Shown here: piece after piece, positions 1 to 57,000 of the stretch
How the letters are laid out: every line of letters begins with the position of its first letter
Numbering within the stretch: the stretch's first letter is position 1
Assembly: GCA_029564765.1 (NCBI GenBank)
Contig: JAKQPK010000029.1
Coordinates: 119 to 64,118, forward strand
Direction of reading: 5' to 3'
Source: Candidatus Omnitrophota bacterium
GTDB lineage: Bacteria; Omnitrophota; Gorgyraeia; Zapsychrales; Aceulaceae
DNA length: 64,000 nt
The notes under the pieces: model-generated
What the model saw: the letters and a program-made list of their open reading frames with translations, nothing else
Database searches by the model: none
What the model was told of the DNA's origin: nothing
Program-made: the position numbers and the translations under genes

Positions 1-1
1 T

Positions 2-30000: not shown

Positions 30001-33000
30001 TTTTATCCGTTCTGTTTGGCAGGAAACAGAATATGGAGCGCTGGTCGATTTCGGTCACGCCTTTGTCAGTGCTAAGCTACTCGGTTACGATCCAAAAGAT
30101 TACATTAAGATTATTATTAATAAAGATAATATTTCCCATCTTCGGGAGGTCCACATCGCTGTTCCAGGTTATGACCAAGGAAAAAAGCAATGGAGAGATC
30201 AGCACAATTGTTTCTCCAGCGATACCGGGAGCGAAGCCAACCAAGCGCTAAGATCCATGCTTTATTATATCTTAGACCTTAGAAGAGTAGAGAGCGTGTC
30301 CGAGCCTTTGATTGTTAATTTTGAGACAGGAGAGGAAAGCGCGACCAGAGAACTTGATGCTTTAAATAGCTATTTGTGCGAAGTTTCTTCAAGCGTGTTA
30401 TCTTTTTTTAGAAATTGGCGGGAAATACGTAAGGAAAAAAGAACGATAGAAGCCATTCAATTTATCAACAGTTTTGATGAAAAGGATGACAACAATATAT
30501 ATATAAGTGAAAATTTAATAATGAATGATGTTTATGATAGGTATGTTAAGACAGGCGTAAATTTTTCACAGTTTATGGAATATGCTGCATTTCTTGCGGC
30601 GACCAAAGATCATCGAAGATTCAAAATTCTTCCAAAGCTAAGAGAAGTATTTTTAAAGCTACCCTCTAAGGTTACCAGAAGCTCCCTCTACAATGGTGAT
30701 ACCTTTGTAGGCATAACATCCGGTTCTTGTTTTGAGAGTGACGAGCTTTTAAAGATAATAAATGACATAGAAAGCTCCTTAAGAGAAAGAAATTCTTCGG
30801 CAACAGCTATTTCCTCCCCAAGCCGATACAATCCTCATAAAAGTTTTGGGTATCGTCCGCAGAGCTGGAATGAGGAAAAAGGTTTTGAGTATCAGCCAAG
30901 AAGAAAATATTCTTATCCCATCAGAGAGCGCTCTTCCAAAGGCTCCGAAAACGACCAAGAAAAAGAGAGCGAAGCATCTTCTGAGCAAGAGAATGATCCG
31001 CAAACGTCTGAAAACAAAGAGCAGCAAGCAACCAGCGAGAGTTCTTCGAACGTCAAGCTTGTAAAAAGAATAGAAGCGGTCGTTCCGCGGCTGGAAAAGT
31101 ACGCCTTTACCTATATTAAAAGCTGCTATTTGTATGATCATAACGCTCATAGCAAGCTCTCCAGGGTGCATCCCGCGGCTATTTATCTTCCTTTAGTTTT
31201 CTTTTTAGAAGGAGGATGTTCATCCTACCCGCATGTAGAAGAAGCGATCGCATTATTAGCTATCATTTTAGAACCTCAAGATTTCGAAGGCTTTCAGAAG
31301 TCTGCCTGCGCTTGTGACGCCAAACCTGTTCATTTGGTCTATCGCGCGATGGCAAGATCAGAAAAATATCACACAAAGAAAGCTTCTATGGCGAGCCCTC
31401 TGGCGTCCGTGATATCAAGCAGTCTTCGCCGTTTTGTTCTGACCACCATTGTTTTGATCGCTATGAGCGTGACATCCCTTTTCGCCCAAGCGATACCCCA
31501 AGAGAACGCCCAGCTCGATGAATCATGGCGCGTGCGTTTTCTCGCGATCAATGCCAGAGAGATAAAACATTTGGACATGATCTCTATCGGCCAAGACGTG
31601 TATGATACTGTTTTACGTGGTCAGCTTGAGCGAGAGATCGTTCAAAAGAGAGTGTTCTTGGAAAAGAGTTCTTGGCAGTATCAGGAAATGGAGCAAGACA
31701 AGGAAGTTTTGCGTATTTTAAAACTTGTTGAAAACGCGAAAAATAAGCGAGACCTTGAAAACATTGTCATCGGGTCGCAAGTATTCGATCCCCAAGTTAG
31801 GGCGCAAATACAAGAGCATATTGTAAGCGTAAAGACGCAGCTGAAGAATTCCCAGGAATTATCTTATATTGAGGAAATGCTTAAGTTCTCGACTGAAGAA
31901 GACTTTTTGAAGAGAGCGGGAGTTTTTCAGTATATGCGTGCTTTCCCTGCAGAGCAAAGACTTTATGTTGAGAATAAAATTGCTCGGCAGCAAAGAGTGT
32001 TTGAAAAAGAAAAAGAGTATGCGCTTGCGATCTCACGCTCCCAGGGGTACTTATCTATTCTCAGCGATCTTTCGCAATGCACGAACCAGCAGGAAGTGAA
32101 TTCTATCCGCATTGATTGGGATTTGTACGATACGTATCTTAAGCAGGCGATTAGACAGGCGATACGCCAACGCTTAGAGGAGATCGATCAAGAGGCTTCT
32201 TTACACGGCCTGGAAAAAACGTTTTACGCGCGGGAAGCATTCCTTCAAAGCGCGATGCTTTATTTAACAACAGACGCTCGTCTTTCTCTCAATATTTCCA
32301 GTGATAATCCCTGGCTTGAACGATGGATCAAAAAGGAATTAATCGCGAAAGAGCGAGAATTGGTCTCTGGCAAGTTTGATATTGAGCAGGAAAAGGAAGT
32401 TTTACGTTTTTATCGAGCCATGATCGATGCCGATCAGGTAGATCTTTTGGATAGTCTGAAATATGGTCCTCAGATAACTTCTTTAGAGGTGCGCGAACAA
32501 TTGCTGAGAGAAAAGCAAGCAAAGCGAGATCTTTTAAAGAAAATAGAGGATCGTTTTCGAGAAATGGAACAATGGGCTAAGGTCGTCGATCTGCAGAGCG
32601 CGATATTTTATGCTAACGCACAGAAAGATCTTGAGGGTTTTTATGTTGATCCACAAGTCTACGATGCAGACATCCGTCAATGGCTCATGTACCAAGCCCA
32701 AGCGAAACGCCGCGTACTCGCGCAAGATGAAGAAGTGAAACGTGTAGAAAAGAAGATCGATTCCGCTGCGCGCTCTTATGATCTTGAAAACATTTTTATT
32801 GGAAAAGCAGTTGTTGATCTTTCAACATACAAGGAACTTGCGGCCAAGATCTCCGTGCGACAACAAGCCCTTAAAGAACAAGAGCGCTTGCGCATAAGGA
32901 TCCTTGAGCTTCAGGGATCTTTGAGCGTTCGCCAGGATATCCGGCGGGCTTATCAGACCCAAGACCTTGCTCGTGTTAAGATCGATGGCAATGTGACCGA

Positions 33001-36000: not shown

Positions 36001-39000
36001 TAAAGAGCTAAGAATGTTGTCCTCGTTCATGCCGTCCTTGAAAAGAGAACTTCGCAAACAAGGGGATCTGCGCTTTGAATGGAACCATGTGCGTTTTAGC
36101 GGATTGCCTTTCAATCGCAAGAACCGCAGTCAGAATAAAGACGCTGCTGATCAGCAAGACAACCATCCTTTCCTTATGTATTCTTTCCCGGGGAGTCTTG
36201 TTGGCAATCCGCTGTTCTTGATCTTTGTTGACCGTAAGGATAGCAGCCGATTTATCGTGTTGGGCCGGGATGAGGAAAAATTTTATGTTCTCAACGACAA
36301 AGGTATCAAGAAATATTTAAAAATAAAAGCTTCCGATGGCCATGGCCGCCACGAAGCAACAGCGGATCTAAGACAGGCTAAAGAATTCCGTGATTTTATT
36401 GGCCTTTCATCGCGCAACAGGATCCTTAAAGATCAATCCAGGGCCTCAGAGAAAAGGAATCATTTTTATGTCGGGTTCTTGGAAAAAGATTTGAGGGTCT
36501 GTTTTACCTCAAAGATCCCCTTGAATGTTGAAGTCGTCAAAGAGCGCGGACGTGTTCGTCGCTTGCTTATTTCTGACCGTCAAGGGCGAGAGATCACCCA
36601 GGTTGCTGCTTTGGGAGATCGACAGTTCTTTGTTAAACACCTTGTTGATAAGAACAGCAAGCCCATTATTTTCACCGTTTATGGCAAGGCTGTCTTGATG
36701 AATGCCGTGTTAACGCGTATCAAAGATATTATCAATCCTTGCCAAGAAATGGCGATCATGCGCCAGCAGGTTTTTCCTTCGTCAAAGCCAGGCTCTCAAT
36801 TTTGCCCTATGCGGATCGTTGAGAAGAACGGCAAGACGAAGGTTATTTTCGAGAAAAAAGAAAAAGGTAAGGGCGCGCAAAATAAGAATATTTCTTCAAG
36901 CCTTGATTTGTCGCTTGATTCTTTCATAATACATATAAGCCTTTCTCAAAGATCAGACTGCCCTGTTAAAAGTTTAAAAGCTATCTTACCTCGTCCGTGG
37001 CTGGTGGGGGGTAGCTCTTTTAACAGGGCAGTTTCTTCTAGTCTTTCGCGCGCGTCATCCAACAACGTAAAGAACAGCAAGCAAGAAAGAACTCTGCCCA
37101 AAGATTCCATGAGCCCGCACAATATCGTTGATCTTCTGGGTATGCCAAAATATATCGGAGCTCAAGGAAAAGGGTCTTATGTAGTCTTAGATTACATGAA
37201 CGCGATCGTTAAGCTGGTCGGCTCTCTTGAGGATGCTCAAAAGCTCATTGGCGAGAAATTATTAGAGAGATTGTCTCAGTCGGAGCAAGGGCTCATTAGC
37301 GCCCAAGGCCTGCAATATTTGGAAAAAGTCGCGCTGGATATTTATGTTCCTCTGGCGATCCGGCTCGGACTTGAACCATTGGCGCAGGAACTTCGTGATC
37401 GCGTTTTTCGAGCTATTGACCCGGATCAATATCAAGAAACAGCTCGGCAAATGCAGGAAGCGACCGGGATGGATGCTGGTCAACGTAAGGCCTTTTTGGA
37501 TACTATTAGCGACCGCGTTGTAAGCAAATTGCGCAGTACCGCTGGCATTGTGATCGTCAATGAAGAGCATCGCGTCAAAGGTATTTACGCCTCAAGCCAA
37601 AAGATCGGACGCAAGGGCAAGAAAGGCAAGCAATACACTTGCATTAACGATCTCGAAGATCTTCTAGGCATCCATCTGATCGTTGACAGTGAAGAAAGTT
37701 TTTGGAATACGGTCGGACAGCTCAGAGGCTGGGCTTATAATTTTAAAGATATTAAAGGCGAGATCTTAGAAGATCAGACAGAACTGAAGAGTATTTATAA
37801 AGGAGACAATTATAACGCCCATCATTTTGGGGTCCGTATCCCTGTGGACGCTGGAGCGCAGAAGCGCTTTGTGATCCTTGAGATCAAAGTATTCAGCAAA
37901 AGCGAATATGACGCTTTCAAATACGGCAATGCCGCTGTCTGGATCTGGGAAGCTAAGAAAAGAAACCCTAGCCAGCGATTTGACCTTGATGGGCTTGTTT
38001 ACGTGAGCGAAAATGCGAAAGAAAGTTTTTCTTCTTTGCTTTCGTTTTTAAACAATTGGATATATGTTTTCTTGTATCAAGAACTGCCTTCAGGGGAAAC
38101 CGTTCTTCAACCTGTGCGCATGAAGCAGGGAGCCATTGTCGCTGATTTTCTAGCTGCGCAGTCAAAGGAAGACAAGCAATGTATCCATAGTGAACAGTAC
38201 CGACGTTTTTATAAAAAACCTTTTTCTTTGCAGATCGCTCGCAGCTATCGTCCACACGGCAAAGACGAGCGCGACCTTGGAGAGGCATTGTTCAACGCGG
38301 ATATCGTGCGTATCAGCACGCGCTATGCGGAGATGACCGTGCCTTTGATGCAGCATATAATGGCCCGGGCGCGATATTTTAAGACTATTAGCTTCTTACA
38401 ATCAGAACCTCGAAAGGCTGACAAGAAAGGCAATGATCTTAGTCCTAATGTTGAAGAATTTTTTAAGGAGATCGGAGGAACAAGCTTTGAAGCATTCTTA
38501 AGATATCACACGCTGACGGTTGCTCAGGCCAATGCGCTTCTCTCCAATAGCGTAATGCGTGTCCGTCTTGATCAAAGAGAGTCCGTTGTGCCTGGGGAAG
38601 AGACGATCAACATGAAGACCGTTATTTTTCAGTCTCCTTCTGGCCAGGCAAGAGAATCTTTTGTTTCCTTGCGCATCGAGATCGCTCAAGATCGCATAGG
38701 GTTCATGCGGGACATCCTTGAGCATATTTCTGCTTTTGGTGCTGTTATTGCTCAAGATCGATCCACACAAAAAGTTGTTCACATCGAATTAGTTCAAGTT
38801 GATCCCCAAGACCTTGATCAGCTATTTTCTTCGTTAAGTGATATTCAATTTCAGGATTTTGTCGCTGTGGAGCAAGTTCAATATCGGCCAGGCCATGTTT
38901 CTGTTCTCGTTTTGTCGGAGCAAAAAGGCTTTCGTTATAGGGCGCTTAAACTTCTTATTTTGCAACGTTTATCCCGGCTTAGCGTTAACTTTCAAGAAGC

Positions 39001-42000
39001 CTTGGGCTCTCAAACAACCATGGATCAGACTGGATGGTTGTTCTCGTATTCTGTCGATATTCCGCTGGAATTAGGGAACGCGATCATTAAGGAGAGCTTA
39101 GAAAATCTTTTGTTTGAGGATCTTAGCTTTACACCCGCAGAGGTCGCTATCGAGGTCACATCGTCCAGCCTTGATATCAAGCGCGTGTTCGATGAGAAAT
39201 TAAGCGCGATCTACACGACAACCAAGCCAGTTGTCGTGGATATCTCTCTGGAAGCTTTTTTGCCCGAATTAGATGACCGGGCTTGCCGTGCTTTGGGAGC
39301 GGGTGGGCTTGGATTTTTAACCGGAGAAACATGGGGAGCGTATAGCGAACTTAATAATATTTTGGCTTTTGGTGTTATGCCGCTTTACGATCTTGATAAG
39401 CAAGATCAGCAGATCGATTGGACGAGCGAGCGCAATATCCATCCTGTTATTCTGGAGAATGGAAATCCGCTTGTTATTAACGTTGTGTTTAATTCTATGA
39501 TCTATAGCGCGTCGATCTTTTGGGTCAACCGCAGAGGCACTCTTGTTTTTCTCATCCGCTGTCCAGAGATCTTTTCACGGTTATATCGCGGCGGGGATGA
39601 GCAAACGAGATATTATGGATTTTTAGCGCGTAGTTTTGTCGAATTAATGAAGCGTTTGAAGATCGCGCCCGCGCTCACTCGACTCAATGAGCCTCAACTA
39701 GTGTTTGTGGCAACAGCCATGGAAAATGATCGCGCTTGGTATCGAGATAATGGCAATGGCCACCACAGTCTTTTTGAAAAGACAAAGATCGTTATGACAA
39801 CGCATACGCCTGAAGCCGCGGCTCTTCCTTACTGGAATCGTGGTCATATTTGCCATGTGGTGGGTGAAGACCTGGTGCGATGGGAGATCGTCTTAGGTGG
39901 AAAATATGGAAATGTTGTCAATGCCGCGATCGGTTTAGCTCGTTTAGCGGATGTCATTAATGGTGTTGCGCAAGAGCATGCCGAAGTCACAAAGATCGCT
40001 GTATTGCCGGAGTTTAAAGATAAGATCGTTGGCATCGTCAATGGATCTGACCCATGGCTATGGGCTTGCGATGATCTGCGTGCACTGTTGGAACAAAAAG
40101 GCAGAGAAGACATTACTGGTGAGGATCTCTTTGCTCTTCGCCATGCGCAAAAAGAACCTTTGAATCAATACTTGGAGAAGAATTTTGGATTCTCTTTTTC
40201 TGATCCTTCAAAGCCTCTTATTGGGCTCATTCGCCGTTTAGTGGACTATAAAGAGCAAGGCATTTTGATCCCGAACTGGCAGCAGGAGTGGGATAAATTT
40301 TTGCATAAAAAGTATGCTGCCTGGATCACAGGCGATAGGGATCGTTTTTATGAAACTCCTTGGGACGCAGAAGTTCCGCTCAAGAAAGGATTGGCAGCGA
40401 ATCTTTTGGTCGGCGGAGATACTTATTACGACAACGGTGCTATCTGGGTGTCTTTATTCAAGGAAATGGCACAGGATCCTGAGCTAAAGGGTAAATTTTT
40501 ATTTGTGGAAAAAAGCGGCATTGAGATCATGAAAAAGGTTATTAACGCCACCGATGTATGGGTCAGCATGCCGCGTTGCACGCGTGAAGCCTGCGGCACC
40601 AGCGATCAGCGGGCGGCGCTTACAGGCGGATATAATATCGCGACCGCGACCGGAGGCCCTCTGGAATACATCATTCATGGAGTGAATGGATGGCTTATGG
40701 ATCCTTTCGCAGGATGGGATCTGGCGCGCGTGGTTCGAGGATTTGATTTTAAGGATCCATGGTTCGTCGGTGAATTTCAGCGGCAAGCCGCTATTCTTCT
40801 GGGCCGTTATCTTCAAGAGGCTATGGACCGTTATTATCGATATACAGAGCAAGGTGATCGCGCTTGGGTGCAAGGCCTTAAAGATTCTATGGATATTGCT
40901 TATGAAAAAGTTTCTATTCATGTCATGGCGCGCAAATACGAGCTTTTGTTTTTGAGTACTTTAAGCGGCAGAGGGGCTGAAGGCTTTAAGCAGGATATGC
41001 TGAACGTAGGTTCTTCGAACATTTCTCTTGCCGTGCGTACGCTCAAGAATTTATTTGGTATAACGATCGACTTGCAAAAACAGACCGTTAACGGTATGAC
41101 TATCAAAGATTTTCTTTTTAATCATGAGCTTTTCTGTGACTGCGCTGAGGCGGGCGAATACAAAAAGCAAGATGAGCAAAATTGGTACCTTACTTTATTG
41201 CATGACTATAACCTCGCGCGCATGTCTGTTGCGAAAGCTAAAAAATATATTTTAGCTACTGCTGAAAAGCTTGACTTAAAGGATGAAACGCAGAAAAAAC
41301 TTGATGGTTGCACAACGAAAAAGGGACAATTGTGGCATCTTTATAAATGGGCGGCGGCTGAGCAATGTTTCACAAGCCGCAAGCGCCAGCGTCAGATGAA
41401 AAAAGAATTGCTCTTTGCCAGGATCGATGTTCGCGATATCAAGCTTGAGCATCTTCCATTGTTTGTTGTTGATCGCAACGGGTATTTTCTTCAGAGTCCC
41501 GCGATGTGGCGCTGGATGACACAGCCGCAACAAGCTCCACCGGAAGAATATTTTTATGCCCGCAAGACCTCCCTTTTTCAGTATTCCCCCAAGCAGCCTC
41601 AACAACTAACACTTAAATTCCCAAGCTCTTCCGCGATCCTTGTCAAGGTCGAACATATTGCTTCCATTTGGAAATATCTTGTGGAATCGAACGCATTATC
41701 CGGCCTGTTGGCACAGTACGGACAAGGCGCGACAACGAAAAACAGCCGGAAGGCGTCTTTTAAAAAAGATCTCATGGCTCTCATCCAAGGCTATGCCACG
41801 TTGGAGCCTGAGGCTCAGGAATGCGCGCGAGAGATCACAAGGCTTTATACGGAAGATGGCAAGGTCGTTGTTGTCTACGGTCGTTATCCAAACGCATTTT
41901 TAGTGCGTATTGCGCGTATTGATTTTGTGGATTACATGACCGACGTTGCTGCAACGACATCTTTTTTCAGCCGTGATATTTCAGCTCGGGTTGATATTAT

Positions 42001-45000
42001 TCGCGATCAAAGAGAGGTTCAGAGCATTGAGCAGGAGCTTTCGGTATACGGTCAGTATCCTTATTTATATGCTTTCATGCGAAGTTTTGCGGGGTATGAT
42101 ATTTTTGATATCGAAGAAAAGATGCGACAGGCGCGTCGCGTTTATCAGATGCCTGGCACATCGGAAAAATCACGCAAAGAGATCCTTCGTTTGTTCGTTG
42201 CTCTTTTAGCTAAAGATAATATGTGGCAGATCCAGCAAAAAGCCCAGGGGATCTTAAACCATATTTTTAGCTTGCGGCCGTCAGAATTTCCATCCGCAGT
42301 TGATGTTCAGATCGTTTGCCCAGGGCAGGCAATTGACATTGAGCCTGTCGTGATCAATATTGGCTTTGATCCTTTTCGCGAAAAAAGAAAGCTCAAAGCT
42401 TTACGCGCCCAATTAGTCATTTATCAATCCAGCAATGATCGCTATGCGCATGTTGATCTCAAGGTCACAGCGCATGCGGATCATCAGGTCAGGCTCGATG
42501 TCGAGGACCGATTCCAGATCGTTGCTGACAAAGGTTATGTTCATGTAAGCGTTCGTTTAGCTCGTGGACGTAGTCAGACGTTACGATATATCGCTTTGCC
42601 GCAAGCCAATCGCACGTTCATTGTTCAGCCGGATATCTCGGGGAAGAAAATTTATCAGCTTTGGCCTAACTATGTGAACGTTTATCATAATGAAGATGGA
42701 AGCTCTCATCACCAGGGGAGCGTTGAGCGCGGCAGAGACGGCCGACCTGCCTGCGGACATTTTCAAATGGTCGAAGCTCTTTTGCCTCAGCTTAAGGCGA
42801 AAGGTTATAGCCATGTGTATGTGATGGGCGCTTATCAGCTGGAGCGTCCGGAGAATATTCAAGGCCAGGCTGGACCTGATGCATCACTGTTCTCGCCTTA
42901 CAGCTGGCGCGTAAGCCGCGAGGCGGGCGGGGAAGAAGCGTTTCGTTCAATGGTGACAAAAGCTAATGAGCTTGGGTTAGGCATTTTGGTCGATGTGATT
43001 CCGCATTTAAATCAAAACTCTCATGAGCTTCCTGAGTGGGCGACTGTCAAGGCTTATGGCCCAAATGGCCAGATCGTGCGCAGACTTGCCACGGATGGCG
43101 GTGTTAATCATGAGGACGGCAGCCCGGTGGAGTGGCATGACTCGGTGGCTCTTAATTTCCGGGATAAACGCGTTTTGGATGCCTTTGCGGCGCTGATCCT
43201 CAAATTAGCTGGGATGGGAGTTGCTGGTATCCGCGGCGATGTTTTTCATAATTATGGTAACGCGTTACCAGTATCAGAAAATCTTCAAGGGCGAGAAAAA
43301 GTTTTTGGCTATGTGACAAGCTGGCAGCGCGCGGATAGCGGCGGATTTAAGATCGTCAATCAATGGCGCAACGACCAGGCCAATCCTTTGCTCACGCATT
43401 TGGTTGCTCAGACCACCCAGCAGTACCCGCAGTTCATCTTTATTGGCGAGAACTACAGTCGCTATGAACAGTTGATCAAATCTGGCATTATCCCGATGAA
43501 TTCTGGGACTCATGACGATTTGGAAAAAGTTATCGTTAAGGACGAACCTGCTAAGCATATCTTGAATGGTCATTTCTATTGGTTGTTCAATATGTTGCCT
43601 TTTGGCGCTCAACTGGTTACTGCCTTAGAGACGCATGATTATTATCGCATTATGGATAGGTGGCAAAGTTACGGTCCACATAAGGTCAAAGCGGCTCTGT
43701 GGGCATGGCTGGCGACGATCAAGGGCGCTCTTTTGGTGTATAACGGCCAAGAAAAAGGAGAGGTCCACCGCATCCGTATTGATAACTGGAGTGAGCATAA
43801 TTATGAAGAGGCGGACCGTCAACGTTATTATGCCTTGAAAGAGTTTGAAAGGGTCAATCGCGTCACCTATGAGGATTATTGGCAGCGATTGTTCAGTTTT
43901 TACCAAGAGAACAGAGAGCTTTATAGCCGCCAAGCCAAGACCTATCTTTTTAATGTATCCCATGATCGTATTTTAGCCTTTGCGCGCTATACCAACGATC
44001 GAAATGCTATTTTCGTTATTAACACCAGCTGGCATTTAGCGCGTGTGACGATCAACTTAGCGGATATCTTTCAGGATCTAGGGATCAAGGATAGCGCCAG
44101 CAGGATCTATCGCGTTTCTGATATCGAGAGCGGTGAAGAAGAAACGTCTTCTGGTCACGGCCTTTTTGTTCATGGCATTGATGTGCGCCTGAAAGCTTAT
44201 GATGTGGCTGTTCTCAGGCTTGAGGATATCAGTGATCAGCCTGGGGCTGAAGAAAGTTTGATCAAGGATTCTTTCGCGCGCTATGAACAACAGCCTTTTT
44301 CTTATCGCACTCAGCATAATTATGCTTCGCGCTGGATGCAGCATGCTCTGAACACAAAGAACAGGGAGATGTTCGTGCAACGCTTTGCCTTTTTGGCCAA
44401 GCTGGTTGATACGGATGACCGTTATAAAGACCTTTGGCCATGTGATCTGACCATGATGATGCATGAGCTGACCGACGAAAGAACAGATGTCCGAGATTTT
44501 TCAAAAACAGTGTTGGCGAGCATTGTCGCCGCCCAACAAGATGAGAAGATCTGCGATGTAGCGGCCAAGGTTTTGCGCTGGATCGATATCGGTATCATTG
44601 TCGACATCTCTCCTGAGGTTGCGCCTTTTTCTAAGGGTGGCGGCTTAGCAAACGTTCCAGGGCAAAAGGCTGAAGAGTTCGTCCAGTCCGGCCTTAAGGT
44701 TTATATCATAAGCCCATTATATTCTTTTAGGGAAGATGAGGCGACTTTAGAGAGGACCTATGTTAAGGACGAAACGATCAGAAAATTCGATATTCGTTAC
44801 GTGAACGTTGTTCCACAGGTCTATATGGGTCGCCATGGATCTGTTCCAGCCGCTGTCGCGTATACGCGCAAAGGTGGCGTGAACTATCTTTTCTTGGATA
44901 ATCCGAACTTTTCAGATTCACTTTATGGCCAGCTACGTGGCAACACGACCGACAGATCTCAGCGCGTCACCAAGGAACATGAACAACTGCGATCGATCTT

Positions 45001-48000
45001 CCTTTCCCTTGGGGCTTTAGAAGCGATTAAGCAGATCGATGTCCATCCTTCCTTTATTGTGGGTAATGATTGGATGTGCGCTCCATTGATGGCGCATTTG
45101 AATTGTGATGCCTCTTTGTACCGTCACGACCCGCATTTTAAGAACACACAAACGATCTTCTTCGTTCATAACAATGGCCAAGATTATCAATTTAAACTTG
45201 CCCACGATCAGAATGGCGTAGAACTTTTAGATAATTTAGGATTGCCCAGAACGGATCACGCTTGGTTTCTAGATCCACATCATCCGGAATTAATGAATTT
45301 TACCGCAGCAGCCATCCGTCATGCCCGCTTTGTCGGGACCGTGAGCCCGGGCCAAATGGAAGATTTCTTAGGATCTGACAACAAGGGCGGCGGTGAGGGA
45401 TTGTGCCATTTATTTCATGAGAAAAATGACCAGGGAAGATTGTTCGCCATCACCAACGGACTTCCGTTGGAAGTTCGCCAAAAAGGTTGGCTAGGATTTT
45501 CTTTCAAGGATGTTGACCGCAGTGACCGCGTCGCTGTCAAAAGGGCTTTAGATGAAATTAAAGCTCTCCAGAAAGAGGCGCGCCAAAAGATCGCAACTGA
45601 ACATCCTGATTTCTTTCCATTTTCAAACGGCACTTCGCCTTACTTGACTGATGATGACCATCTTGTCGTCATGATGGTTACGCGCGTCACAGAGCAAAAG
45701 GGGGTTCATTATGTAGCGTCTTTCGTACGCAGGGTTATTCATTCAGGAAAAAAAGTTGTCTTTTTATTCGTTGGCGCGGGAGATCAGCGTCTCATGGATA
45801 CCCTAACAGAGGTCGCGAGGGAATTTCCAGGGCGTGTTGGCTATCCAGCCAAGTTCGTTTCGGATCAGCAACCGATCTATTATCATATGTATCTTGCTGG
45901 AGACATTTACTTAGCTTTCTCGACTTGGGAGCCGGGTGGAATTTCCCCGATGGAAGCGCTGGCGTTTATGACCGCGGTCTTAGCTTCTGATAAGCAGGGC
46001 CACAAATCAACGATCAGATCCCTTTATATAGAAGCCCTAAAAGATATTTTAGGAGTTTTTGCAGATGAACAAGGTGTGAATGGCGCGCGTTTTCCGATCG
46101 ATGACGGAAATTTTGACAATACAGTTGATAATGCTTATCAAGCATTTGAGACGCTGTTTGCAGCTTGGGAAGATCGTTTTGTCGATAGCAAGTGGGATGC
46201 GATCCTTGAAAACGCCTTTTTCTCTGACAATAGCTGGGAGAGGGTTGTCGGAGACTTTGAAGCGCTATTCAAGAATATCCGTTTTCTGGGGAGGGTATCG
46301 TCATCAATTGAAGATCGCACAAGATTGTTCTTTGATCTGCAGATGCTCAAAGACGCTTTTGATACACAGAAGATCATACAATATATCCCAGAATTCAAGG
46401 CCCTGAGTAAGAATGATTTTCGGAAAAGAGGTCATTTTAGATTCCTGTCTGTTTATAAGCATATCTATCGGGCTCTTTTTTCAGAACCAGAACGCGTGAC
46501 TGCAAGATCAAGACACGATTTTCGTCCTGAGGCTGTTATCAGGGCTGCCTTGGTTTTTCACGATATTGGCGTTGGTGAGCCTAGCAATACAGAATATGCC
46601 TATCTGGCATCCTGGAGCCCAGAGAGGGAAGAAGCGATCGCAAGACAGATGATGCCTTTCGTGGATCCACGCAGCGAGATCGCGCGCCAGCACGTTCAGT
46701 ACCTTAAGCATCCTTACATTTCTGTCGCTATCGCTGATAAATATTTAGAAAGTTTTGGGTTTTCACAACCTGAGATCATCGTTATTCGTTTTTTGATCTG
46801 GTATCATTCAGCTCTTTCAGAGTTTGTCTTGCATGGCAAACTCAAAGACCTTACTTCTTTAGATCAATTTTTGGAGGAGGCTTACGGACTTTCTGGTTGG
46901 ATGGACATTGACTTTAATGATTTGATCGACATGCTTTTGATCGTGCAGTTGCGTGATTCCTACGCGGTTGTCTCCCGCAAAGAAGATGGGATGAATGAAG
47001 CCACTGAAGAAAAGATCCGACAGCTGGCTTCTTTGATCAAAAAAGGATCTGAGGCAAGAATCCATTTAACGCAATTTTTGGACAATATCTCGCGTGAGCG
47101 CCAGAATATTTACGCTCAATATTCTTATCTGATCGACGTCATCAAGCGTAAAGCTGCGCAACAAGGACAAGACCGTATCAGCGATGAACGACTGGCAGAG
47201 ATCTTTTCCATTCTTTATCGCCTTCACGCTTTTCAGAGAAGGCGCCAACGCAAAGAAGAAGGTATCTGGCTTCCAGAGTTTTCTTACAAGCTTTATATTG
47301 AGCATGTTATTGATGTCACTACAAAGCTTGTGTTCCATTATGGTCTGACGGATGAAATATCGATCTTGGAAGCGCTATTTCATGATGTTAAGGAAGACAC
47401 GCGGTTTTCAGATACGCTGTTGCGGATCATTTTCCATCCTCATGGAAAAGGGATCGTGACCGGATTGAATGTTCTCGACAAGACGAGAAAATTTGATTTT
47501 AGCGTACTTAGTTTTTCTTCGCTGAAGAATTCTTTAAAGGAGCAGAGAGATCTCGTTTATATGGCCATGATCTTTGTTGCCGGAGAGCGAAGAGAGCAGT
47601 GCATCAAATCATGTGATGTTTTTTCTAATTTTGAGACGCTCGGCGGATTTGAGACCCCGGAAGACAAGCTTAAACAACTGAAGAAGTTTAGAACATTGCT
47701 GATGTTTCTTGTCGAAGCCTCATACTTAACTGAACAAGAAAAGATCTTGATGCTCCGCCAACACCATGTTTATATCCAGGCTGCTGAAAAAAAGGAAGTC
47801 AGCGAGCTGGTCATAAGCTTTCTGAAGAATTACACAGATGATGTGCGGTCTTATGGCAAGCGCATCCGTAACGCGAAGATTGACCTTAGCGCCCTGCACA
47901 TTTTAACAGCCCTGTATCAAATAACCACCCCCAAAGAGATACTTGTCTCAGAGACAGTTTCTGACTTGGCCCTGTTGGATCCTAAAATGCGTATTTTAGA

Positions 48001-54000: not shown

Positions 54001-57000
54001 TCAGCTTGATAGCGAAGTCGCTTCGTATGACATGCTGAAAGTCCTGCTGTCCTGGAAGCTTGAGGAAGAGGCTTATCAAGCGCGTCAGGTCAAAGGGATC
54101 GAGCGTCTTGTTCAAGATACGAAGTTAAGGACGCTAACCTCTCTTTATCTGCAAGGGCCAGAGTCCATGGGGGAAGCCGCTCGGCTTCACGAACAAAATC
54201 AAAGAATTTCTAAGATATATCCCCAATTTCTGCACTCTCGCTTTAAAACAAAAATAGCCATTTTTGATTGGGATGGAACGTTATCGCGTATTCGAGAAGG
54301 ATGGGAGTGGATCCTGTCTCCTTTAGTCGCGGCGATCATTTCTGGAGCCCAATGCCCCATGACGTTTTGGGATGAGGTCGTTCGCGCTGTTTTAAATGAT
54401 GAGCGACGATATGATGCCACGCGCCTGGATGGCGTTGAGGACTTGATCAAGAAAGGTATTCTACGCCAAGAAGATATGGAGTGGGCTTATCAGATAGTCG
54501 AACGGACAAAAGGTTTTACGAACCGGGAACAGATCCTTTTAGCCTACGATGAAGCCATGGCCCGCAATATCAAGATCGAGAATTTTCAATGGGTCCTAGA
54601 TTATTGCCAAGATAAAAGCGGTGCGGCTCCTCCATCGGCAGCTGAAGCCCTGGTCATATTCTTTCTTGATCTAGTTTATCGTTTGCGTAACGACCGCCTT
54701 GCCACCCTTAAAGAAACTAACCTTTCGCCCGCCAAATACCTTTTTCCAAAGACAACCGCTTTCTTAAGCCGCTTACAAGATGAAAATGTTGTGTGCTATA
54801 TCGTGACAGGCTCTGATAAGCGAGGCGTTGAGGAGGAAGTGGCCTTGTTGGGCTTGCGACCTCAGGTCAAGGATATCGTTGGTTTTTCTCTTGAAGGAGG
54901 GAAGGGAGAAAGCAAGGAAGAGATCATGCAGGCTTTAGTGAATCAAGCCATCAAGGAGCGCGTGATCGGGCATACCCAAGAAGTTTTGGTCGTTGGTGAT
55001 GGATGGGCTGAATTGCAGGCGGGTCACAAGATAGGATGCTTAACGGTCGCGATTCGCTCTCGCGAGAATACAGATTCTTTTTCTTTTATAGAGGAGGCCA
55101 AGCCTTGTTTTACGATCAATATTCAGACCGATGGTGTACAGCCTTATGATCTGGCTCTTCGTGAAGCTAGAGATATCTTCGAAGCGCTTCAAAAAGGGAA
55201 GCCAGAACAATGCGCGTGGCTTCCTGATCCGATCCTTTCTTTATCATTAACCAGCAAGGTAGAAGAAAGTTATGCTAGCTTTTTGACTCCCCAGGCGACC
55301 GACGCGGTTTTGCCTCAGGTTTTGCGTCATTTTCCGTTCTCAGAGAACGAGAGTGTTCGCATGGAAACTGTTTATCAGGTATCCGCCCTTAATAACGAAG
55401 ATGTTAACGCGCACGCGCATGATCTTATTCTTTTTAAGATTGGTCATGAAAAATGGATAAAACATTTCGCGGAAATCCTTTCACATCGCATCCGTCAGAT
55501 GATCCCAGATCTCAGCGGGTGGATCTTGGCTTTTCGCAAGTCAACTCCGGAGCACGCCACACAACGACTGGGAGACTATATCGCGGCTAGCTTGGGCGCG
55601 GAGGTGGTTTATTTAGAGCAGAAAAAATGGCCTGTCGGATATGTCTCTATGTCCGCCCAAGAGCGCTATAAGGCTGTGGAGAACTCGACCGTGGTTTTAT
55701 CACCTGAAAAGGTCGCAGGAAAGAAAGTGATCATTATTGATGATGTGATCCATAGCGGCGGCGTGTTAAAAGATTTGGCGCAGACGCTTATAATCCTTAA
55801 AGCGAAAGAAGTTTTTGCCTTTGTACTTTTTGATTCAGGAGACGTTAGTTTTGAGGTTGGCATCTATCCTTTCTTGCAGGCGCATCCTTCCTTGCTTAAA
55901 GAGGCGATCATTGAAAATCAAGGGAGGCTTTCCTTGGGAGGGATCAAGTATTTGATGCAGTTCATCCGCGATTCACGGACAGCTTTTCTACAGGCAACAG
56001 AAGGTCTTTCCCGAGATGTTCGCTATGAGCTTGTCAAACGCAGCTTGCAATATCTTGACATTGTTCCTCGTCAATATGAAAAAGATCTGCTGCACGCGCT
56101 TCTTTCAATCTGGGCTGCGGACATTTATCAAGGACTTTCACTATCAAATAAATTAGAGGTTCTGACAAGCTTGAAAGATGTTGTGTCTCGTGGGATCTTA
56201 GCCAACGGCGAGCGGACATTATTTGTAAGCGCGCAAGAATGGGAGTCTTCTTCAAAAGCGGTCTTCTATGCGTATGTCAAAGGGTATGACTTCCTAGTTT
56301 TTAGGGACAGACGCGCAATGAGCTCTGACGCGACCGAAGAAGCCCTAGAGGCAGCCCGCCTTTTCCATGTTTTTTTAGCAAGTCCTTATTATACAACGTT
56401 GCCGCGTTCCATTTATGCTAAGCAGGAAAACCAAGGGTTCGCGATCGCGAAAGAACAAAAGGATTTTCTAAGCTTTTTAGCTGAGGCCATGAAAAATATC
56501 CGTAATGCGCATAAGGCGAGGATCCTTGAGCTGTCTTTGGGAGCTGCTGAGAACGATGCTCCATCCGCCATACTGAAGGCGTCCAAGGACTATGCGCAGC
56601 AGTGCGCCAAGATCTTTCAGGATGTTTGTGAAAGTTTGATCGATTTTTTAAGGAAGAAAAATATCGCTATTTCCAAGAATGATCTTGCGATCGCCTTTGT
56701 TGGATCCTTAGCTCGCGGCGAGGTGACTGAAGCTTCTGATATTGATTTTGATATTATCGCTAAAGATGAAGAGACCGCTAAGATCATTGAAGGGTCTGTT
56801 GCGTTAGCTCTTACGCATTTTTTAAGGCTGGCCGGATTTGATGTTGGCCCCTCGGATGAATTATATCAGCGCCATATCAAAACCCGTTACGAGCTTAAGA
56901 CGCATAAATTATTTGATGAGCGCATGCGCGCTGAAGACCGCCCAAGCACGCTCATCCGTTTTTGTGATTACACCTTTGCCTGGGGAAACCCGATGATCTT

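What the first reader, a model, noticed from the sequence alone, without database searches (positions are those of the whole stretch)
39230..46000. A complete alpha-glucan (glycogen) metabolism enzyme set fused into the giant ORF, with a PLP-lysine-less phosphorylase
Three modules that are normally separate cytoplasmic enzymes are contiguous in one frame. They are a GT35 phosphorylase-like module (GGLG.L, TTHTPEA, NGVAQEH; 39230-40900), a GH13 (beta/alpha)8 module with regions I-IV in order (42700-44250), and a GT5 glycogen-synthase-like module (PFSKGGGL ... EPGG; 44580-46000). In the phosphorylase-like module the segment aligning to the PLP-binding EASGTsNMK reads EACGTSDQR. The Schiff-base lysine is replaced by arginine, which predicts a PLP-independent or catalytically altered (possibly binding-only) phosphorylase fold. 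A glucan synthase/phosphorylase/amylase triad inside a membrane-anchored giant protein suggests a built-in polysaccharide remodelling or storage machine, or a polyglucan tether. It does not look like simple cell-wall lysis.
Basis: partly seen in the sequence, partly recalled or inferred. Interest (0 to 1): 0.75.

Follow-up and report, generated by a model that had tools for sequence, protein, structure and literature searches.

The report
Lysine-less phosphorylase-like module in fused glucan cassette
Inside a giant gene of an uncultured Omnitrophota bacterium, three starch/glycogen-type enzymes are fused in a row, and the first belongs to a large, uncharacterised branch of the glycogen-phosphorylase family that has lost the lysine which normally holds the vitamin-B6 cofactor.

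Summary
The whole 64-kb window is one open frame (21,333 aa, no stop). At 39.1-46.2 kb it encodes three consecutive modules.

- Module 1 is a GT-B module related to clade-2 alpha-glucan phosphorylases (TIGR02094, E=8e-25).
- Module 2 is a GH13 module with regions I-IV and the Asp/Glu/Asp triad.
- Module 3 is a GT5 glycogen/starch-synthase module (PF08323, E=3e-35).

All three are under strong purifying selection (dN/dS 0.06-0.07). They are colinear in two other Omnitrophota genomes and occur in the same order in two distant proteins.

The Lys-to-Arg change is real (CGG, 40610-40612) and is a clade trait. 112 of the 148 aligned domain rows from the 150 best cluster representatives carry Arg. 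They come from Omnitrophota, CPR, Elusimicrobia and Sedimentisphaerales.

Sugar-enzyme clusters in these giant proteins are already published, and "complete set" overstates the case. The new element is the lysine-less, probably covalent-PLP-free phosphorylase-like clade. Its chemistry is untested.

The parts
39140..41070 (+). Module 1: about 640-aa GT-B module of the Arg clade, related to clade-2 (TIGR02094-type) alpha-glucan phosphorylases (giant aa about 13047-13690)
40610..40612 (+). CGG codon for Arg13537, at the position of the PLP Schiff-base lysine (rabbit GP K680, S. copri GP K609)
   Evidence: Alignments; codon. Arg in 112 of 148 aligned domain rows from the best 150 representatives. 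Arg in 38 of 40 genome loci.
40514..40516 (+). Ser13505, at the position of the Tyr conserved in 90% of K-type relatives (S. copri GP Y577; rabbit Y648, a PLP-ring contact by my recollection)
   Evidence: Among the seven of 57 K-clade-conserved positions that differ in the Arg clade, this and the Lys are the only two that I tie to PLP.
40232..40258 (+). RRLVDYKEQ: the Arg-Arg...Tyr-Lys phosphate-site motif (S. copri GP R507, R508, Y512, K513)
   Evidence: Invariant R340, R341, Y345, K346 and Q348 in A1. Conserved in both the K and R clades. Residue roles from PMC12912991.
39794..39820 (+). MTTHTPEAA: T-H-T motif; the matching His in S. copri GP (H316) contacts substrate or product, and by my recollection rabbit H377 binds the glucosyl O6
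   Evidence: Invariant T195, H197 and T198 in A1. His is 100% conserved in both clades.
39296..39328 (+). GAGGLGFLTGE: the GGLG glycine loop shared with GT35 and GT5 enzymes
   Evidence: Invariant G30, G31, L32 and G33 in A1. Aligned to the GGL of the GT5 module by hhalign.
41071..41650 (+). Poorly conserved linker between module 1 and the GH13 unit
   Evidence: 30-57% identity to L006, against 65-93% within module 1 and 67-93% within the GH13 and GT5 cores. dN/dS 0.21 for 41072-42559.
41660..42559 (+). Conserved accessory region upstream of the GH13 catalytic domain (probable N-terminal domains of the GH13 unit); fold not determined
   Evidence: 53-82% identity to L006. Travels with the GH13 domain in P0163 and P0059. 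No Pfam or NCBIfam hit.
42560..44300 (+). Module 2: GH13 (beta/alpha)8 catalytic domain plus C-domain. Regions I-IV at 42992-43009, 43226-43252, 43439-43456 and 43625-43642. Predicted nucleophile D (GIRGD), acid/base E (IGENY), third D (THD)
   Evidence: PF00128 23.2 bits. Profile A2 against PDB: 1lwh E=2e-9. Invariant R221, D223, E293 and H355 in A2. Foldseek GlgE 4u33 E=7e-19, from a model of only pLDDT 65. dN/dS 0.063.
44540..46243 (+). Module 3: GT5 glycogen/starch-synthase-type GT-B module with KGGGL, NDW, HN, R..QK and E-x7-E (EPGGISPME)
   Evidence: PF08323 E=3.2e-35 (44600-45400) and PF00534 E=5.7e-16 (45650-46021). TIGR02095 E=3e-38. PDB 3vue GBSS E=5e-14. dN/dS 0.063.

Best explanation
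Window 39.1-46.2 kb encodes a fused, selectively maintained alpha-1,4-glucan (glycogen-like) cassette. It lies in a long soluble stretch, most likely cytoplasmic, of a membrane-associated giant protein from an Omnitrophota bacterium.

- Module 3 (GT5) elongates alpha-1,4 chains from a nucleotide-glucose donor.
- Module 2 (GH13, triad intact) cuts or transfers alpha-glucan segments. Its exact specificity is unresolved.
- Module 1 is a catalytically active relative of clade-2 alpha-glucan phosphorylases that no longer binds PLP covalently.

For module 1 I commit to one mechanism. It is a cofactor-lysine-free retaining transferase that interconverts glucan chain ends and glucose-1-phosphate. Phosphate is held by the conserved Arg-Arg/Lys site and by the new Arg, and it acts directly as nucleophile and leaving group in an SNi-like reaction. 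The PLP-free GT4 trehalose phosphorylases work this way.

Shown:
- Family relationships of the three modules.
- Retention of catalytic residues.
- Loss of the Lys, and of a Tyr that I recall as a PLP contact.
- Clade-wide fixation of Arg.
- Purifying selection.
- Recurrent fusion to alpha-glucan enzymes.

Inferred:
- Cytoplasmic location.
- Enzymatic activity.
- Choice of phosphate rather than a nucleotide as the leaving group.
- Functional coupling of the three modules.
For: Family assignments.

Active site: 57 positions are at least 85% conserved in K-type relatives. Only seven show a different commonest residue in the Arg clade. Two of these are the PLP Lys (now Arg) and the Tyr577/648 equivalent (now Ser/Thr). 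Retained are GGLG, LNE, T-H-T, NGVS.EH, NG..W, RR..YK and EA.GTS (consensus). The only invariant lysines in A1 (K313, K346) are also conserved in the K clade, so no compensating Schiff-base lysine has appeared.

Selection: dN/dS is 0.074, 0.063 and 0.063 for the three modules, against 0.21 for the linker.

Synteny: the triad is colinear in L005 (89% aa identity) and L006 (75%). The same module order occurs in the distant P0040 and P0059.

Fusion partners: Arg-clade modules are repeatedly fused to UDPGP, PGM, GH77, GH13, a product named amylo-alpha-1,6-glucosidase, sucrose-synthase-like domains and GT5.

Gene neighbourhood: a separate-gene homologue (P0001) lies in a cluster with a GT4/GT5 transferase, DUF4912 and a GH57 branching enzyme. 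A Sedimentisphaerales homologue lies 4.6 kb from a GH57-GT5 fusion.

Location: no strongly hydrophobic 19-mer occurs between aa 10496 and 19838, apart from one that lies inside the GH13 domain itself. Neighbouring modules use ATP/GTP, PRPP or SAM (RelA/SpoT, PRPP-synthetase-like, PRTase, CheR).

Precedent: PLP-free retaining GT-B phosphorylases exist (GT4 trehalose phosphorylase; my own knowledge).
Against: No biochemical data exist for any member of the Arg clade.

Within one CPR-rich sub-branch the Arg position varies (M, L, G, V, D). The Arg itself may therefore not be catalytic.

Topology rests on a crude hydropathy scan. Published TM predictions for these proteins are described as unreliable.

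The GH13 model is of low confidence (pLDDT 65), so its role in the cassette is open.

The giant protein may be cleaved after translation (suggested in 10.1101/2023.11.21.568195). 'Fused' may then not describe the mature enzymes.
Confidence: 0.45

Rival explanations
1. Module 1 and the whole Arg clade are nucleotide-sugar-dependent alpha-glucan synthases. In this reading the nucleotide fills the space that PLP occupies in phosphorylases. The clade would then be a surviving or reverted 'proto-GT35' Leloir enzyme, and the cassette would hold two synthases plus a GH13 transferase.
For: - hhalign of A1 against the ORF's own GT5 family gives probability 98.6% and E=8e-16 over 406 columns. Arg13537 falls on the second Glu of the E-x7-E motif. 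That position is a nucleotide-ribose contact in GT4/GT5 enzymes (my own knowledge).
- Arg-clade members score 38-90 bits against TIGR02095 glgA.
- Pfam labels several of them PF08323.
- The clade is fused to UDP-glucose pyrophosphorylase in P0003.
- A review proposes just such an NDP-sugar-dependent ancestor of GT35 (PMC11046441 section 6.3).
Against: - By sequence the clade is closer to TIGR02094 phosphorylases (88-115 bits) than to glgA (34-90 bits).
- The C-terminal signature is the phosphorylase EA(S/C)GTS, not the GT5 EPCGL.
- Phosphorylases align over more residues (514-529 against 434-461).
- Fusions to GH77, to a debranching-type product and to PGM resemble catabolic phosphorylase partnerships.
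- A bona fide GT5 already sits 3.5 kb downstream.
Confidence: 0.28
2. Module 1 is still a PLP-dependent phosphorylase, but it binds PLP or another phosphorylated cofactor non-covalently. The Arg would help to hold the cofactor.
For: - The phosphate cradle (GTS after the catalytic Glu) and the Trp of the NG..W motif, which I recall as a PLP-pocket residue (rabbit W491), are retained.
- Classical work shows that borohydride-reduced phosphorylase stays active. The imine is therefore not needed for catalysis; only the 5'-phosphate is (my own knowledge).
Against: - The Tyr that I recall stacking on PLP is lost together with the Lys.
- The Gly-Met before the Lys is replaced by Asp-Gln.
- In a sub-branch the position is M, L, G, V or D. 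That is hard to reconcile with a cofactor-holding role.
Confidence: 0.1
3. Module 1 is a non-catalytic glucan-binding or scaffolding pseudoenzyme. It would tether alpha-glucan to the giant protein or regulate the neighbouring GH13 and GT5 modules.
For: - The residue regarded as indispensable for GT35 enzymes is lost.
- The module scores below every curated family cut-off.
Against: - Catalytic and substrate-binding residues are near-invariant across more than 100 cluster representatives.
- dN/dS is 0.074, as low as in the GT5 and GH13 modules.
- The clade also exists as standalone proteins of about 500-700 aa in small CPR genomes and in Sedimentisphaerales.
Confidence: 0.1
4. The triad is extracellular and acts on prey or host polysaccharides, as part of the predatory cell-wall attack proposed for Omnitrophota giant proteins.
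For: The published model assigns most detected domains of these giant proteins to the outside of the cell and links them to prey cell-wall degradation (10.1101/2023.11.21.568195).
Against: - GT5 synthases need nucleotide sugars, which are not available outside the cell.
- Neighbouring modules need ATP/GTP, PRPP or SAM.
- Separate-gene homologues sit in ordinary glycogen-type clusters.
- The same paper says its localisation predictions are unreliable.
- Alpha-1,4-glucan is not a bacterial or archaeal wall polymer (my own knowledge).
Confidence: 0.05

Closest known systems
Clade-2 alpha-glucan phosphorylases (NCBIfam TIGR02094; Segatella copri GP, PDB 9L6I; Thermococcales maltodextrin phosphorylase)
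   Same: - Best sequence-profile and Foldseek match.
- GT-B fold with the C-terminal helical extension.
- Shared motifs GGLG, LNE, T-H-T, NGVS.EH, NG..W, RR..YK and EA(S/C)GTS...NG.
- The catalytic His, Arg-Arg and Lys named for ScGP are all present.
   Different: - The PLP lysine (K609) is Arg, and the conserved Tyr577 equivalent is Ser/Thr.
- The score of 88-115 bits is far below the 191.7 cut-off, whereas a K-type relative scores 804.
- In the NJ tree the Arg clade clusters apart from K-type enzymes, one Lys-bearing member excepted.
- The module is shorter, about 600 aa against 700-850.
GT5 glycogen/starch synthases (E. coli GlgA 2QZS, Arabidopsis SS4 6GNE)
   Same: - hhalign probability 98.6%.
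- Shared GGL loop, catalytic-site His, and the Arg/Lys pair in R..(Q)K.
- Some members are annotated 'glycogen/starch synthase'.
   Different: - The signature after the catalytic Glu is phosphorylase-like (EACGTS, not EPCGL).
- The second position of E-x7-E is Arg.
- Extra C-terminal helices.
- glgA profile scores are only 34-90 bits against a cut-off of 328.
GT4 retaining trehalose phosphorylase (PLP-independent GT-B phosphorylase); functional analogy only, from my own knowledge
   Same: Retaining phosphorolysis on a GT-B scaffold without PLP, using an Arg/Lys phosphate site. This is the mechanism proposed here for module 1.
   Different: A different family and substrate (a disaccharide). No specific sequence relationship was tested here.
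Omnitrophota giant proteins: 'Archaeovorins' (West-Roberts et al. 2023) and 'multi-enzyme metabolic clusters' (2026 preprint)
   Same: - One enormous ORF in Omnitrophota, with TM segments, TPR repeats, methyltransferase, HAD and glycosyl-transferase and -hydrolase modules.
- GT5 is reported as the most prevalent GT.
- A sugar-metabolism Pfam module (PF08323, PF00534, PGM) is reported.
   Different: - In the term searches of the two texts I ran, 'phosphorylase' does not occur in the 2023 paper. In the 2026 preprint the one hit shown was 5'-methylthioadenosine phosphorylase.
- The phosphorylase-like module is sub-threshold in Pfam.
- The recurrent order Arg-module, GH13, GT5 and the Lys-to-Arg clade do not appear in those searches either.
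GlgE-type GH13_3 maltosyltransferases and GH13 4-alpha-glucanotransferases (for module 2)
   Same: GH13 fold. The top Foldseek hits are GlgE (E=7e-19). The top profile hit is the T. maritima 4-alpha-glucanotransferase (E=2e-9). The catalytic Asp/Glu/Asp are present.
   Different: The ranking among GH13 subfamilies is flat and the model is of low confidence (pLDDT 65). No subfamily-specific residues were tested, so the specificity is unassigned.

Membership tests
GT35 (glycogen/starch/maltodextrin phosphorylase) | Lysine that forms the Schiff base with PLP (rabbit K680, S. copri K609) in EASGT(G/S)xMK | tested here: not met
   Arg13537 (CGG, 40610-40612) aligns to K609. Arg in 112 of 148 aligned rows. 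No compensating invariant Lys.
GT35 (glycogen/starch/maltodextrin phosphorylase) | Curated profile score (Pfam PF00343 gathering score 27; NCBIfam TIGR02094 cut-off 191.7; TIGR02093 cut-off 552.9) | tested here: not met
   PF00343 16.3 bits; TIGR02094 87.7 bits (E=7.8e-25); TIGR02093 26.8 bits. The module is homologous but outside every curated boundary.
GT35 (glycogen/starch/maltodextrin phosphorylase) | GT-B fold with phosphorylase-type active-site residues (GGLG loop, T-H-T His, NGV, Arg-Arg..Tyr-Lys phosphate site, Glu-Ala-Ser-Gly-Thr) | tested here: met
   AF2 model pLDDT 88. Foldseek E=2e-30 to 9l6i/20yr. Residue conservation.
GT35 (glycogen/starch/maltodextrin phosphorylase) | Aromatic PLP-ring contact (rabbit Y648 by my recollection; S. 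copri Y577 by alignment) | tested here: not met
   Ser13505 in the window. Tyr in 90% of the K clade; Ser is the commonest residue (44%) in the Arg clade.
GT35 (glycogen/starch/maltodextrin phosphorylase) | Pi-dependent phosphorolysis of alpha-1,4-glucan to glucose-1-phosphate | not testable with these tools
   Needs an enzyme assay.
GT5 (ADP/UDP-glucose glycogen/starch synthase), module 3 | Pfam PF08323 plus PF00534 above their gathering scores | tested here: met
   122.4 bits (cut-off 22.7) and 59 bits (cut-off 26.4).
GT5 (ADP/UDP-glucose glycogen/starch synthase), module 3 | Signature residues: K-x-G-G-L, HN, the R...K pair, and the catalytic Glu in E-x7-E | tested here: met
   KGGGL, FVHNNGQ, TRVTEQKG and EPGGISPME, aligned to rice GBSS and E. 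coli GS.
GT5 (ADP/UDP-glucose glycogen/starch synthase), module 3 | Equivalog-level identity with bacterial GlgA (TIGR02095 cut-off 328) | tested here: not met
   131.6 bits. This is a divergent GT5 with insertions. Its donor nucleotide is unknown.
GH13 (alpha-amylase family), module 2 | Conserved regions I-IV in order, with the catalytic Asp (II), Glu (III) and Asp (IV) | tested here: met
   DVIPH, GIRGDVFHN, IGENY and LETHDY. R221, D223, E293 and H355 are invariant in the seven-sequence alignment A2.
GH13 (alpha-amylase family), module 2 | Profile or fold match to GH13 structures | tested here: met
   PF00128 23.2 bits against 22. A2 against PDB E=2e-9. Foldseek E=7e-19.
GH13 (alpha-amylase family), module 2 | Assignment to a GH13 subfamily or specificity (branching enzyme, GlgE, amylase, 4-alpha-glucanotransferase) | tested here: inconclusive
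   The top hits differ by method (GlgE by fold, 4-alpha-glucanotransferase by profile). The model has pLDDT 65.
Archaeovorin-type Omnitrophota giant protein (West-Roberts et al. 2023) | Giant ORF in Omnitrophota with many TM segments and mixed GT, GH, methyltransferase, peptidase, NUDIX and SecA-like domains | tested here: inconclusive
   The ORF exceeds 21,333 aa and is open at both ends. Orthologues are in Omnitrophota MAGs. TM-like segments, GT48, GT5, GH13, CheR and HAD are present. No peptidase, NUDIX or SecA domain was detected in the window, and the ORF ends lie outside it.

The most novel reading that the evidence does not exclude
The Arg clade may be a third, previously unrecognised kind of alpha-glucan GT-B enzyme, lying between GT5 synthases and GT35 phosphorylases. 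It would be either a surviving PLP-free 'proto-GT35' of the type hypothesised in the literature, or a secondary escape from PLP dependence in small-genome, episymbiotic lineages (Omnitrophota, CPR). It would carry out glucan phosphorolysis or synthesis with no cofactor. In Omnitrophota it is hard-wired with a GH13 and a GT5 into a conserved three-enzyme supermodule inside giant membrane proteins.
Probability: 0.3. Interest if true: 0.8.

Novelty: new variant of a known kind. Interest (0 to 1): 0.6.

Why it matters
GT35 is treated as a single-activity family in which PLP, held by one invariant lysine, is indispensable. Here a deep and widespread sister clade keeps almost the entire active site. 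It has lost just that lysine and a tyrosine that I recall as a PLP contact. This gives a direct experimental handle on two questions.

- The first is how PLP-dependent phosphorylases arose from, or can revert to, cofactor-free or nucleotide-dependent GT-B enzymes.
- The second is what the PLP phosphate actually contributes to catalysis.

There is a practical consequence too. Annotation pipelines currently call these proteins 'glycogen synthase' or 'glucan phosphorylase' at random. Metabolic reconstructions of Omnitrophota, CPR and Elusimicrobia (glycogen storage, G1P supply) therefore rest on an untested enzyme.

For giant-protein biology, the conserved order of phosphorylase-like, GH13 and GT5 modules, each under strong purifying selection, argues for one reading. 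At least part of these proteins would be an assembly line of ordinary cytoplasmic metabolism, not an extracellular weapon.

Tried and rejected
- Extra glucan-pathway modules next to the triad (GlgC, PGM, branching enzyme). I searched with Pfam, NCBIfam and PDB phmmer over 29.4-64 kb. I found only RelA/SpoT-like, HAD, PRTase and similar modules, so 'complete set' is rejected.
- The 41.1-42.6 kb stretch has no profile hit. It is conserved only from about 41.66 kb and travels with the GH13 unit.
- Gene neighbourhoods of standalone Arg-clade genes in Peribacteria and Elusimicrobia were uninformative: seryl-tRNA synthetase, a GT4, an amidase, SAM synthetase, a peptidase.
- GH13 subfamily assignment failed. 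The AF2 model is weak (pLDDT 65) and the rankings are flat and depend on the method.
- The afdb50 fold library was not available, so I could not retrieve UniProt-annotated structural neighbours.
- Literature searches for a Lys-to-Arg or PLP-less GT35 found nothing relevant. This is absence in the held library only.
- I considered that the Arg could be a sequencing or assembly error. I rejected this because of an independent 99.9%-identical fragment, the orthologues, and the fact that the CGG codon differs from the Lys codons at two positions.
- I considered that an Asp two residues before the Arg might mimic the PLP phosphate. I rejected this because the position is variable (D, G, H, Y, Q) within the clade.
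- Model coordinates are not exposed, so I could not examine pocket geometry or dock PLP, ADP-glucose or G1P.

Full report
**1. What is in the window**

Frame +2 is open from base 2 to base 64000, that is 21,333 codons. No other frame holds more than 215 codons. The window is therefore an internal piece of a still larger gene.

Pfam finds many unrelated enzyme modules along it:
- an FKS1-type GT48 beta-1,3-glucan synthase domain (E=5e-74) with flanking hydrophobic clusters;
- DUF218, TPR repeats and an MbnB/TglH-like domain;
- a RelA/SpoT-like domain;
- the three modules of the finding;
- HAD, phosphoribosyltransferase, NTP-transferase, PRPP-synthetase-like, CheR and a weak T2SSE ATPase match.

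The closest relatives of the finding region all come from uncultured Candidatus Omnitrophota. Some TPA records are labelled Planctomycetales. This matches the published Omnitrophota giant genes (10.1101/2023.11.21.568195; 10.64898/2026.06.07.730766).

**2. Check of the observation**

- The GT5 module is unambiguous. PF08323 gives E=3.2e-35 and PF00534 gives E=5.7e-16. TIGR02095 gives E=3e-38. It aligns to rice GBSS and E. coli GS with KxGGL, HN, the R..QK pair and E-x7-E intact.
- The GH13 module is weak in Pfam (23.2 bits against a cut-off of 22). It has regions I-IV in order. A seven-sequence family alignment keeps Arg and Asp (region II), Glu (region III) and His (region IV) invariant. The family profile hits GH13 structures at E=2e-9. 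An AF2 model of only pLDDT 65 hits GH13 enzymes at E=7e-19.
- Module 1 fails the Pfam phosphorylase threshold (16.3 bits). It matches NCBIfam TIGR02094, 'alpha-glucan family phosphorylase', at E=7.8e-25 and the Segatella copri enzyme at E=4e-11.
- That last alignment puts the window's R13537 on K609. The structure paper names K609 as the PLP lysine. The R583 named in that paper also falls where expected, which confirms the register.

**3. Module boundaries, selection and synteny**

A scan of species-representative genomes returned 40 loci.
- L005 is colinear with the window over 6,539 aa at 89% identity.
- L006 is colinear over 2,369 aa at 75% identity, and this span covers all three modules.

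Identity to L006 runs at 65-93% inside module 1 and 67-93% inside the GH13 and GT5 cores. It drops to 30-57% between modules. This places the modules at 39140-41070, 42560-44300 (with a conserved accessory part from about 41660) and 44540-46243.

Against L005, dN/dS is 0.074, 0.063 and 0.063 for the three modules and 0.21 for the linker region. All three are maintained as functional protein.

The same order (Arg-type module, then GH13, then GT5) recurs in two much more distant proteins, P0040 and P0059, at 23-27% identity. GH13-GT5 pairs recur in P0164 and P0019. The triad is a conserved supermodule, not an accident of this gene.

**4. The Lys-to-Arg change is a clade character**

Eighteen word-indexed homologues of module 1, at 25-47% identity, are all large multidomain proteins; those that carry a source name are Omnitrophota. 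Every one that covers the site has Arg there.

A profile of 15 of them (A1) was searched against 1.84 billion cluster representatives. It found 2,971 relatives at E<=1e-3 and 266 at E<=1e-30. Of the 148 aligned domain rows from the best 150 representatives:
- 112 carry Arg;
- 21 carry Lys, and these are lower-scoring, mostly canonical EASGTSGMK proteins;
- the remainder carry M, G, I, D, A, V, C or L;
- two rows are GT5 domains with Glu.

In the 40 genome loci, 38 have Arg, one has Ala and one could not be read. An independent assembly fragment, 99.9% identical to the window, also has Arg. The codon is CGG.

In a rough NJ tree rooted on GT5 domains, the K-type proteins cluster apart from one large Arg clade, in which a single Lys-bearing member is nested. 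No support values were calculated.

Members occur in three forms:
- inside giant ORFs;
- in proteins of 800-1,300 aa;
- as standalone proteins of 500-720 aa.

Their sources are Omnitrophota, Peribacteria, Falkowbacteria and Paceibacterota (CPR), Elusimicrobia and Sedimentisphaerales.

Sources name them inconsistently. NCBI says 'glycogen/starch synthase' and IMG says 'glucan phosphorylase', sometimes for the same cluster. No curated NCBIfam model claims them. They score 100-115 bits on TIGR02094 (cut-off 191.7) and 38-90 bits on glgA (cut-off 328). A K-type relative scores 804 bits on TIGR02094.

**5. What changed and what did not**

Fifty-seven alignment positions are at least 85% conserved in the K-type relatives. 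Only seven show a different commonest residue in the Arg clade. Two of them are:
- the PLP lysine, now Arg;
- the Tyr aligned with S. copri Y577, now Ser/Thr. I recall the rabbit equivalent, Y648, as a PLP-ring contact.

Retained features include:
- the GGLG loop;
- LNE;
- the T-H-T histidine (ScGP H316);
- NGVS.EH;
- NG..W;
- the RR..YK phosphate site (ScGP R507, R508, Y512, K513; PMC12912991);
- EA(S/C)GTS...NG.

The only invariant lysines in A1 are also conserved in K-type enzymes, so no substitute Schiff-base lysine has appeared.

The pattern is a near-selective loss of the cofactor anchor with the sugar and phosphate sites kept. This argues for an active enzyme with altered cofactor chemistry, not a decayed one.

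**6. Fold**

The AF2 model of module 1 is good (pLDDT 88, pTM 0.89).
- Foldseek ranks the S. copri phosphorylase first (E=2e-30), then starch synthase IV (E=2e-26), then classical phosphorylases.
- hhalign of A1 against the ORF's own GT5 family gives 98.6% probability. It places the Arg on the second Glu of the E-x7-E motif.

The module is therefore a structural and sequence intermediate between GT5 and GT35. A review of alpha-glucan enzymes explicitly hypothesises that PLP replaced a nucleoside monophosphate in an NDP-sugar-dependent proto-GT35 (PMC11046441).

**7. Functional context**

Arg-type modules are repeatedly fused to other alpha-glucan or glucose-phosphate enzymes:
- UDP-glucose pyrophosphorylase (P0003);
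- phosphoglucomutase (P0006, P0017);
- GH77 4-alpha-glucanotransferase (P0009);
- GH13 (P0015, P0018, P0040, P0057);
- a product named amylo-alpha-1,6-glucosidase (P0057);
- sucrose-synthase-like domains (P0005, P0016);
- GT5 (P0012, P0040, P0059, P0063, P0099).

These are documented.

In one Omnitrophota MAG the homologue P0001 is a separate gene. It lies in a cluster with a GT4/GT5 transferase, DUF4912 and a GH57 branching enzyme. In Sedimentisphaerales a standalone member lies 4.6 kb from a GH57-GT5 fusion.

In the window, the triad lies in a roughly 9,300-aa stretch with no strongly hydrophobic segment, apart from one inside the GH13 barrel. Its neighbours need ATP/GTP, PRPP or SAM. From this I infer a cytoplasmic location. 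The scan is crude, and the published predictions for such proteins are admitted to be unreliable.

**8. Mechanism**

My best reading has confidence of about 0.45.
- The region is a fused cytoplasmic alpha-1,4-glucan cassette.
- GT5 elongates the chains.
- GH13 cuts or transfers segments, with specificity open.
- Module 1 is a PLP-lysine-free, retaining glucan/glucose-1-phosphate transferase. It uses the conserved phosphate site and the new Arg, and works by an SNi-like route. PLP-free GT4 trehalose phosphorylase is the precedent (my own knowledge).

The remaining rivals are less likely, for the reasons given under the rival explanations:
- non-covalent PLP (0.10);
- a binding-only pseudoenzyme (0.10);
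- an extracellular role in predation (0.05).

**9. Comparison with what is known, and novelty**

Fusion of GT5, GT1, PGM and other sugar enzymes into Omnitrophota giant proteins is already reported. A role in turning prey-derived sugars into glycogen has been suggested.

I ran term searches on those two texts. In them 'phosphorylase' does not occur in the 2023 paper. In the 2026 preprint the one hit shown was 5'-methylthioadenosine phosphorylase. Three things do not appear in those searches or in my literature searches:
- the phosphorylase-like module, which Pfam does not call;
- its membership in a large lysine-less clade;
- the conserved three-module order.

I file this as a new variant of a known kind. 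It is homologous to GT35, but it fails the family's defining cofactor feature and every curated threshold.

Calling it a 'complete glycogen enzyme set' is an overstatement. No sugar-nucleotide pyrophosphorylase, PGM, branching enzyme or debranching enzyme was detected in the 64 kb.

**10. Verdict**

Interest is 0.6. The giant-gene context is known. The lysine-less phosphorylase-like clade is a real surprise for a family regarded as uniformly PLP-dependent, and it makes the origin of PLP dependence in GT-B enzymes directly testable.

Noticed in passing
window about 16240-17870 (giant aa about 5414-5958), with hydrophobic clusters at aa 5117-5362 and 5970-6373: An FKS1-type GT48 1,3-beta-glucan synthase domain lies inside the same giant ORF. 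Pfam PF02364 gives E=5e-74, and phmmer against yeast FKS1 (7xe4) gives E=9e-39 over FKS1 residues 749-1317. As far as I know, GT48 is essentially a eukaryotic family. A bacterial copy flanked by TM clusters suggests that this protein also makes and exports a beta-glucan.
   Followed up: partly
window 20000-22000: A coiled-coil-like stretch of about 650 aa, rich in E, K, A and Q. It accounts for the AT-skew peak of 0.31 in the composition profile.
   Followed up: partly
window about 37310-38075: A RelA/SpoT-type (p)ppGpp-synthetase-like domain lies 1 kb upstream of the triad. Pfam gives 21 bits, which is sub-threshold. PDB GTP pyrophosphokinases match at E=1e-5.
   Followed up: no
window 1-15000: The first 5,000 aa of the frame have no Pfam match at E<=0.01, although a few TM-like segments occur there (aa 643-1189, 4833).
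   Followed up: no
window about 54250-63400: A run of further small-molecule enzyme modules lies downstream: HAD hydrolase, phosphoribosyltransferase, NTP_transf_2, the PRPP-synthetase N-domain, CheR methyltransferase and a weak T2SSE-like ATPase. P0051 and P0063 share a block at giant aa about 19155-19684 at 43% identity, and P0023 shares it at 34%. In all three the block sits at a different relative position, which points to module shuffling between giant proteins.
   Followed up: no
window about 29714-30200: A domain resembling MbnB/TglH/ChrH, a RiPP-precursor-modifying enzyme family (PF05114, E=2.9e-7, 30.4 bits against a cut-off of 25).
   Followed up: no
L002 / L010 (GCA_022711395.1, JAKLFA010000004.1), locus coordinates 1-13882: An Omnitrophota gene cluster: GT4/GT5 transferase, DUF4912, GH57 branching enzyme (BE_C), a 478-aa ORF and a 1,570-aa ORF with no Pfam hit, then the 1,293-aa Arg-type protein P0001. 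The two unannotated ORFs may be further glucan-pathway components.
   Followed up: no
protein clusters of P0044, P0083 and P0094 (not in the window): The same Arg-clade cluster is named 'glycogen/starch synthase' by NCBI and 'glucan/starch/glycogen phosphorylase' by IMG. This is a systematic annotation conflict that affects metabolic reconstructions of CPR, Elusimicrobia, Omnitrophota and Sedimentisphaerales.
   Followed up: partly
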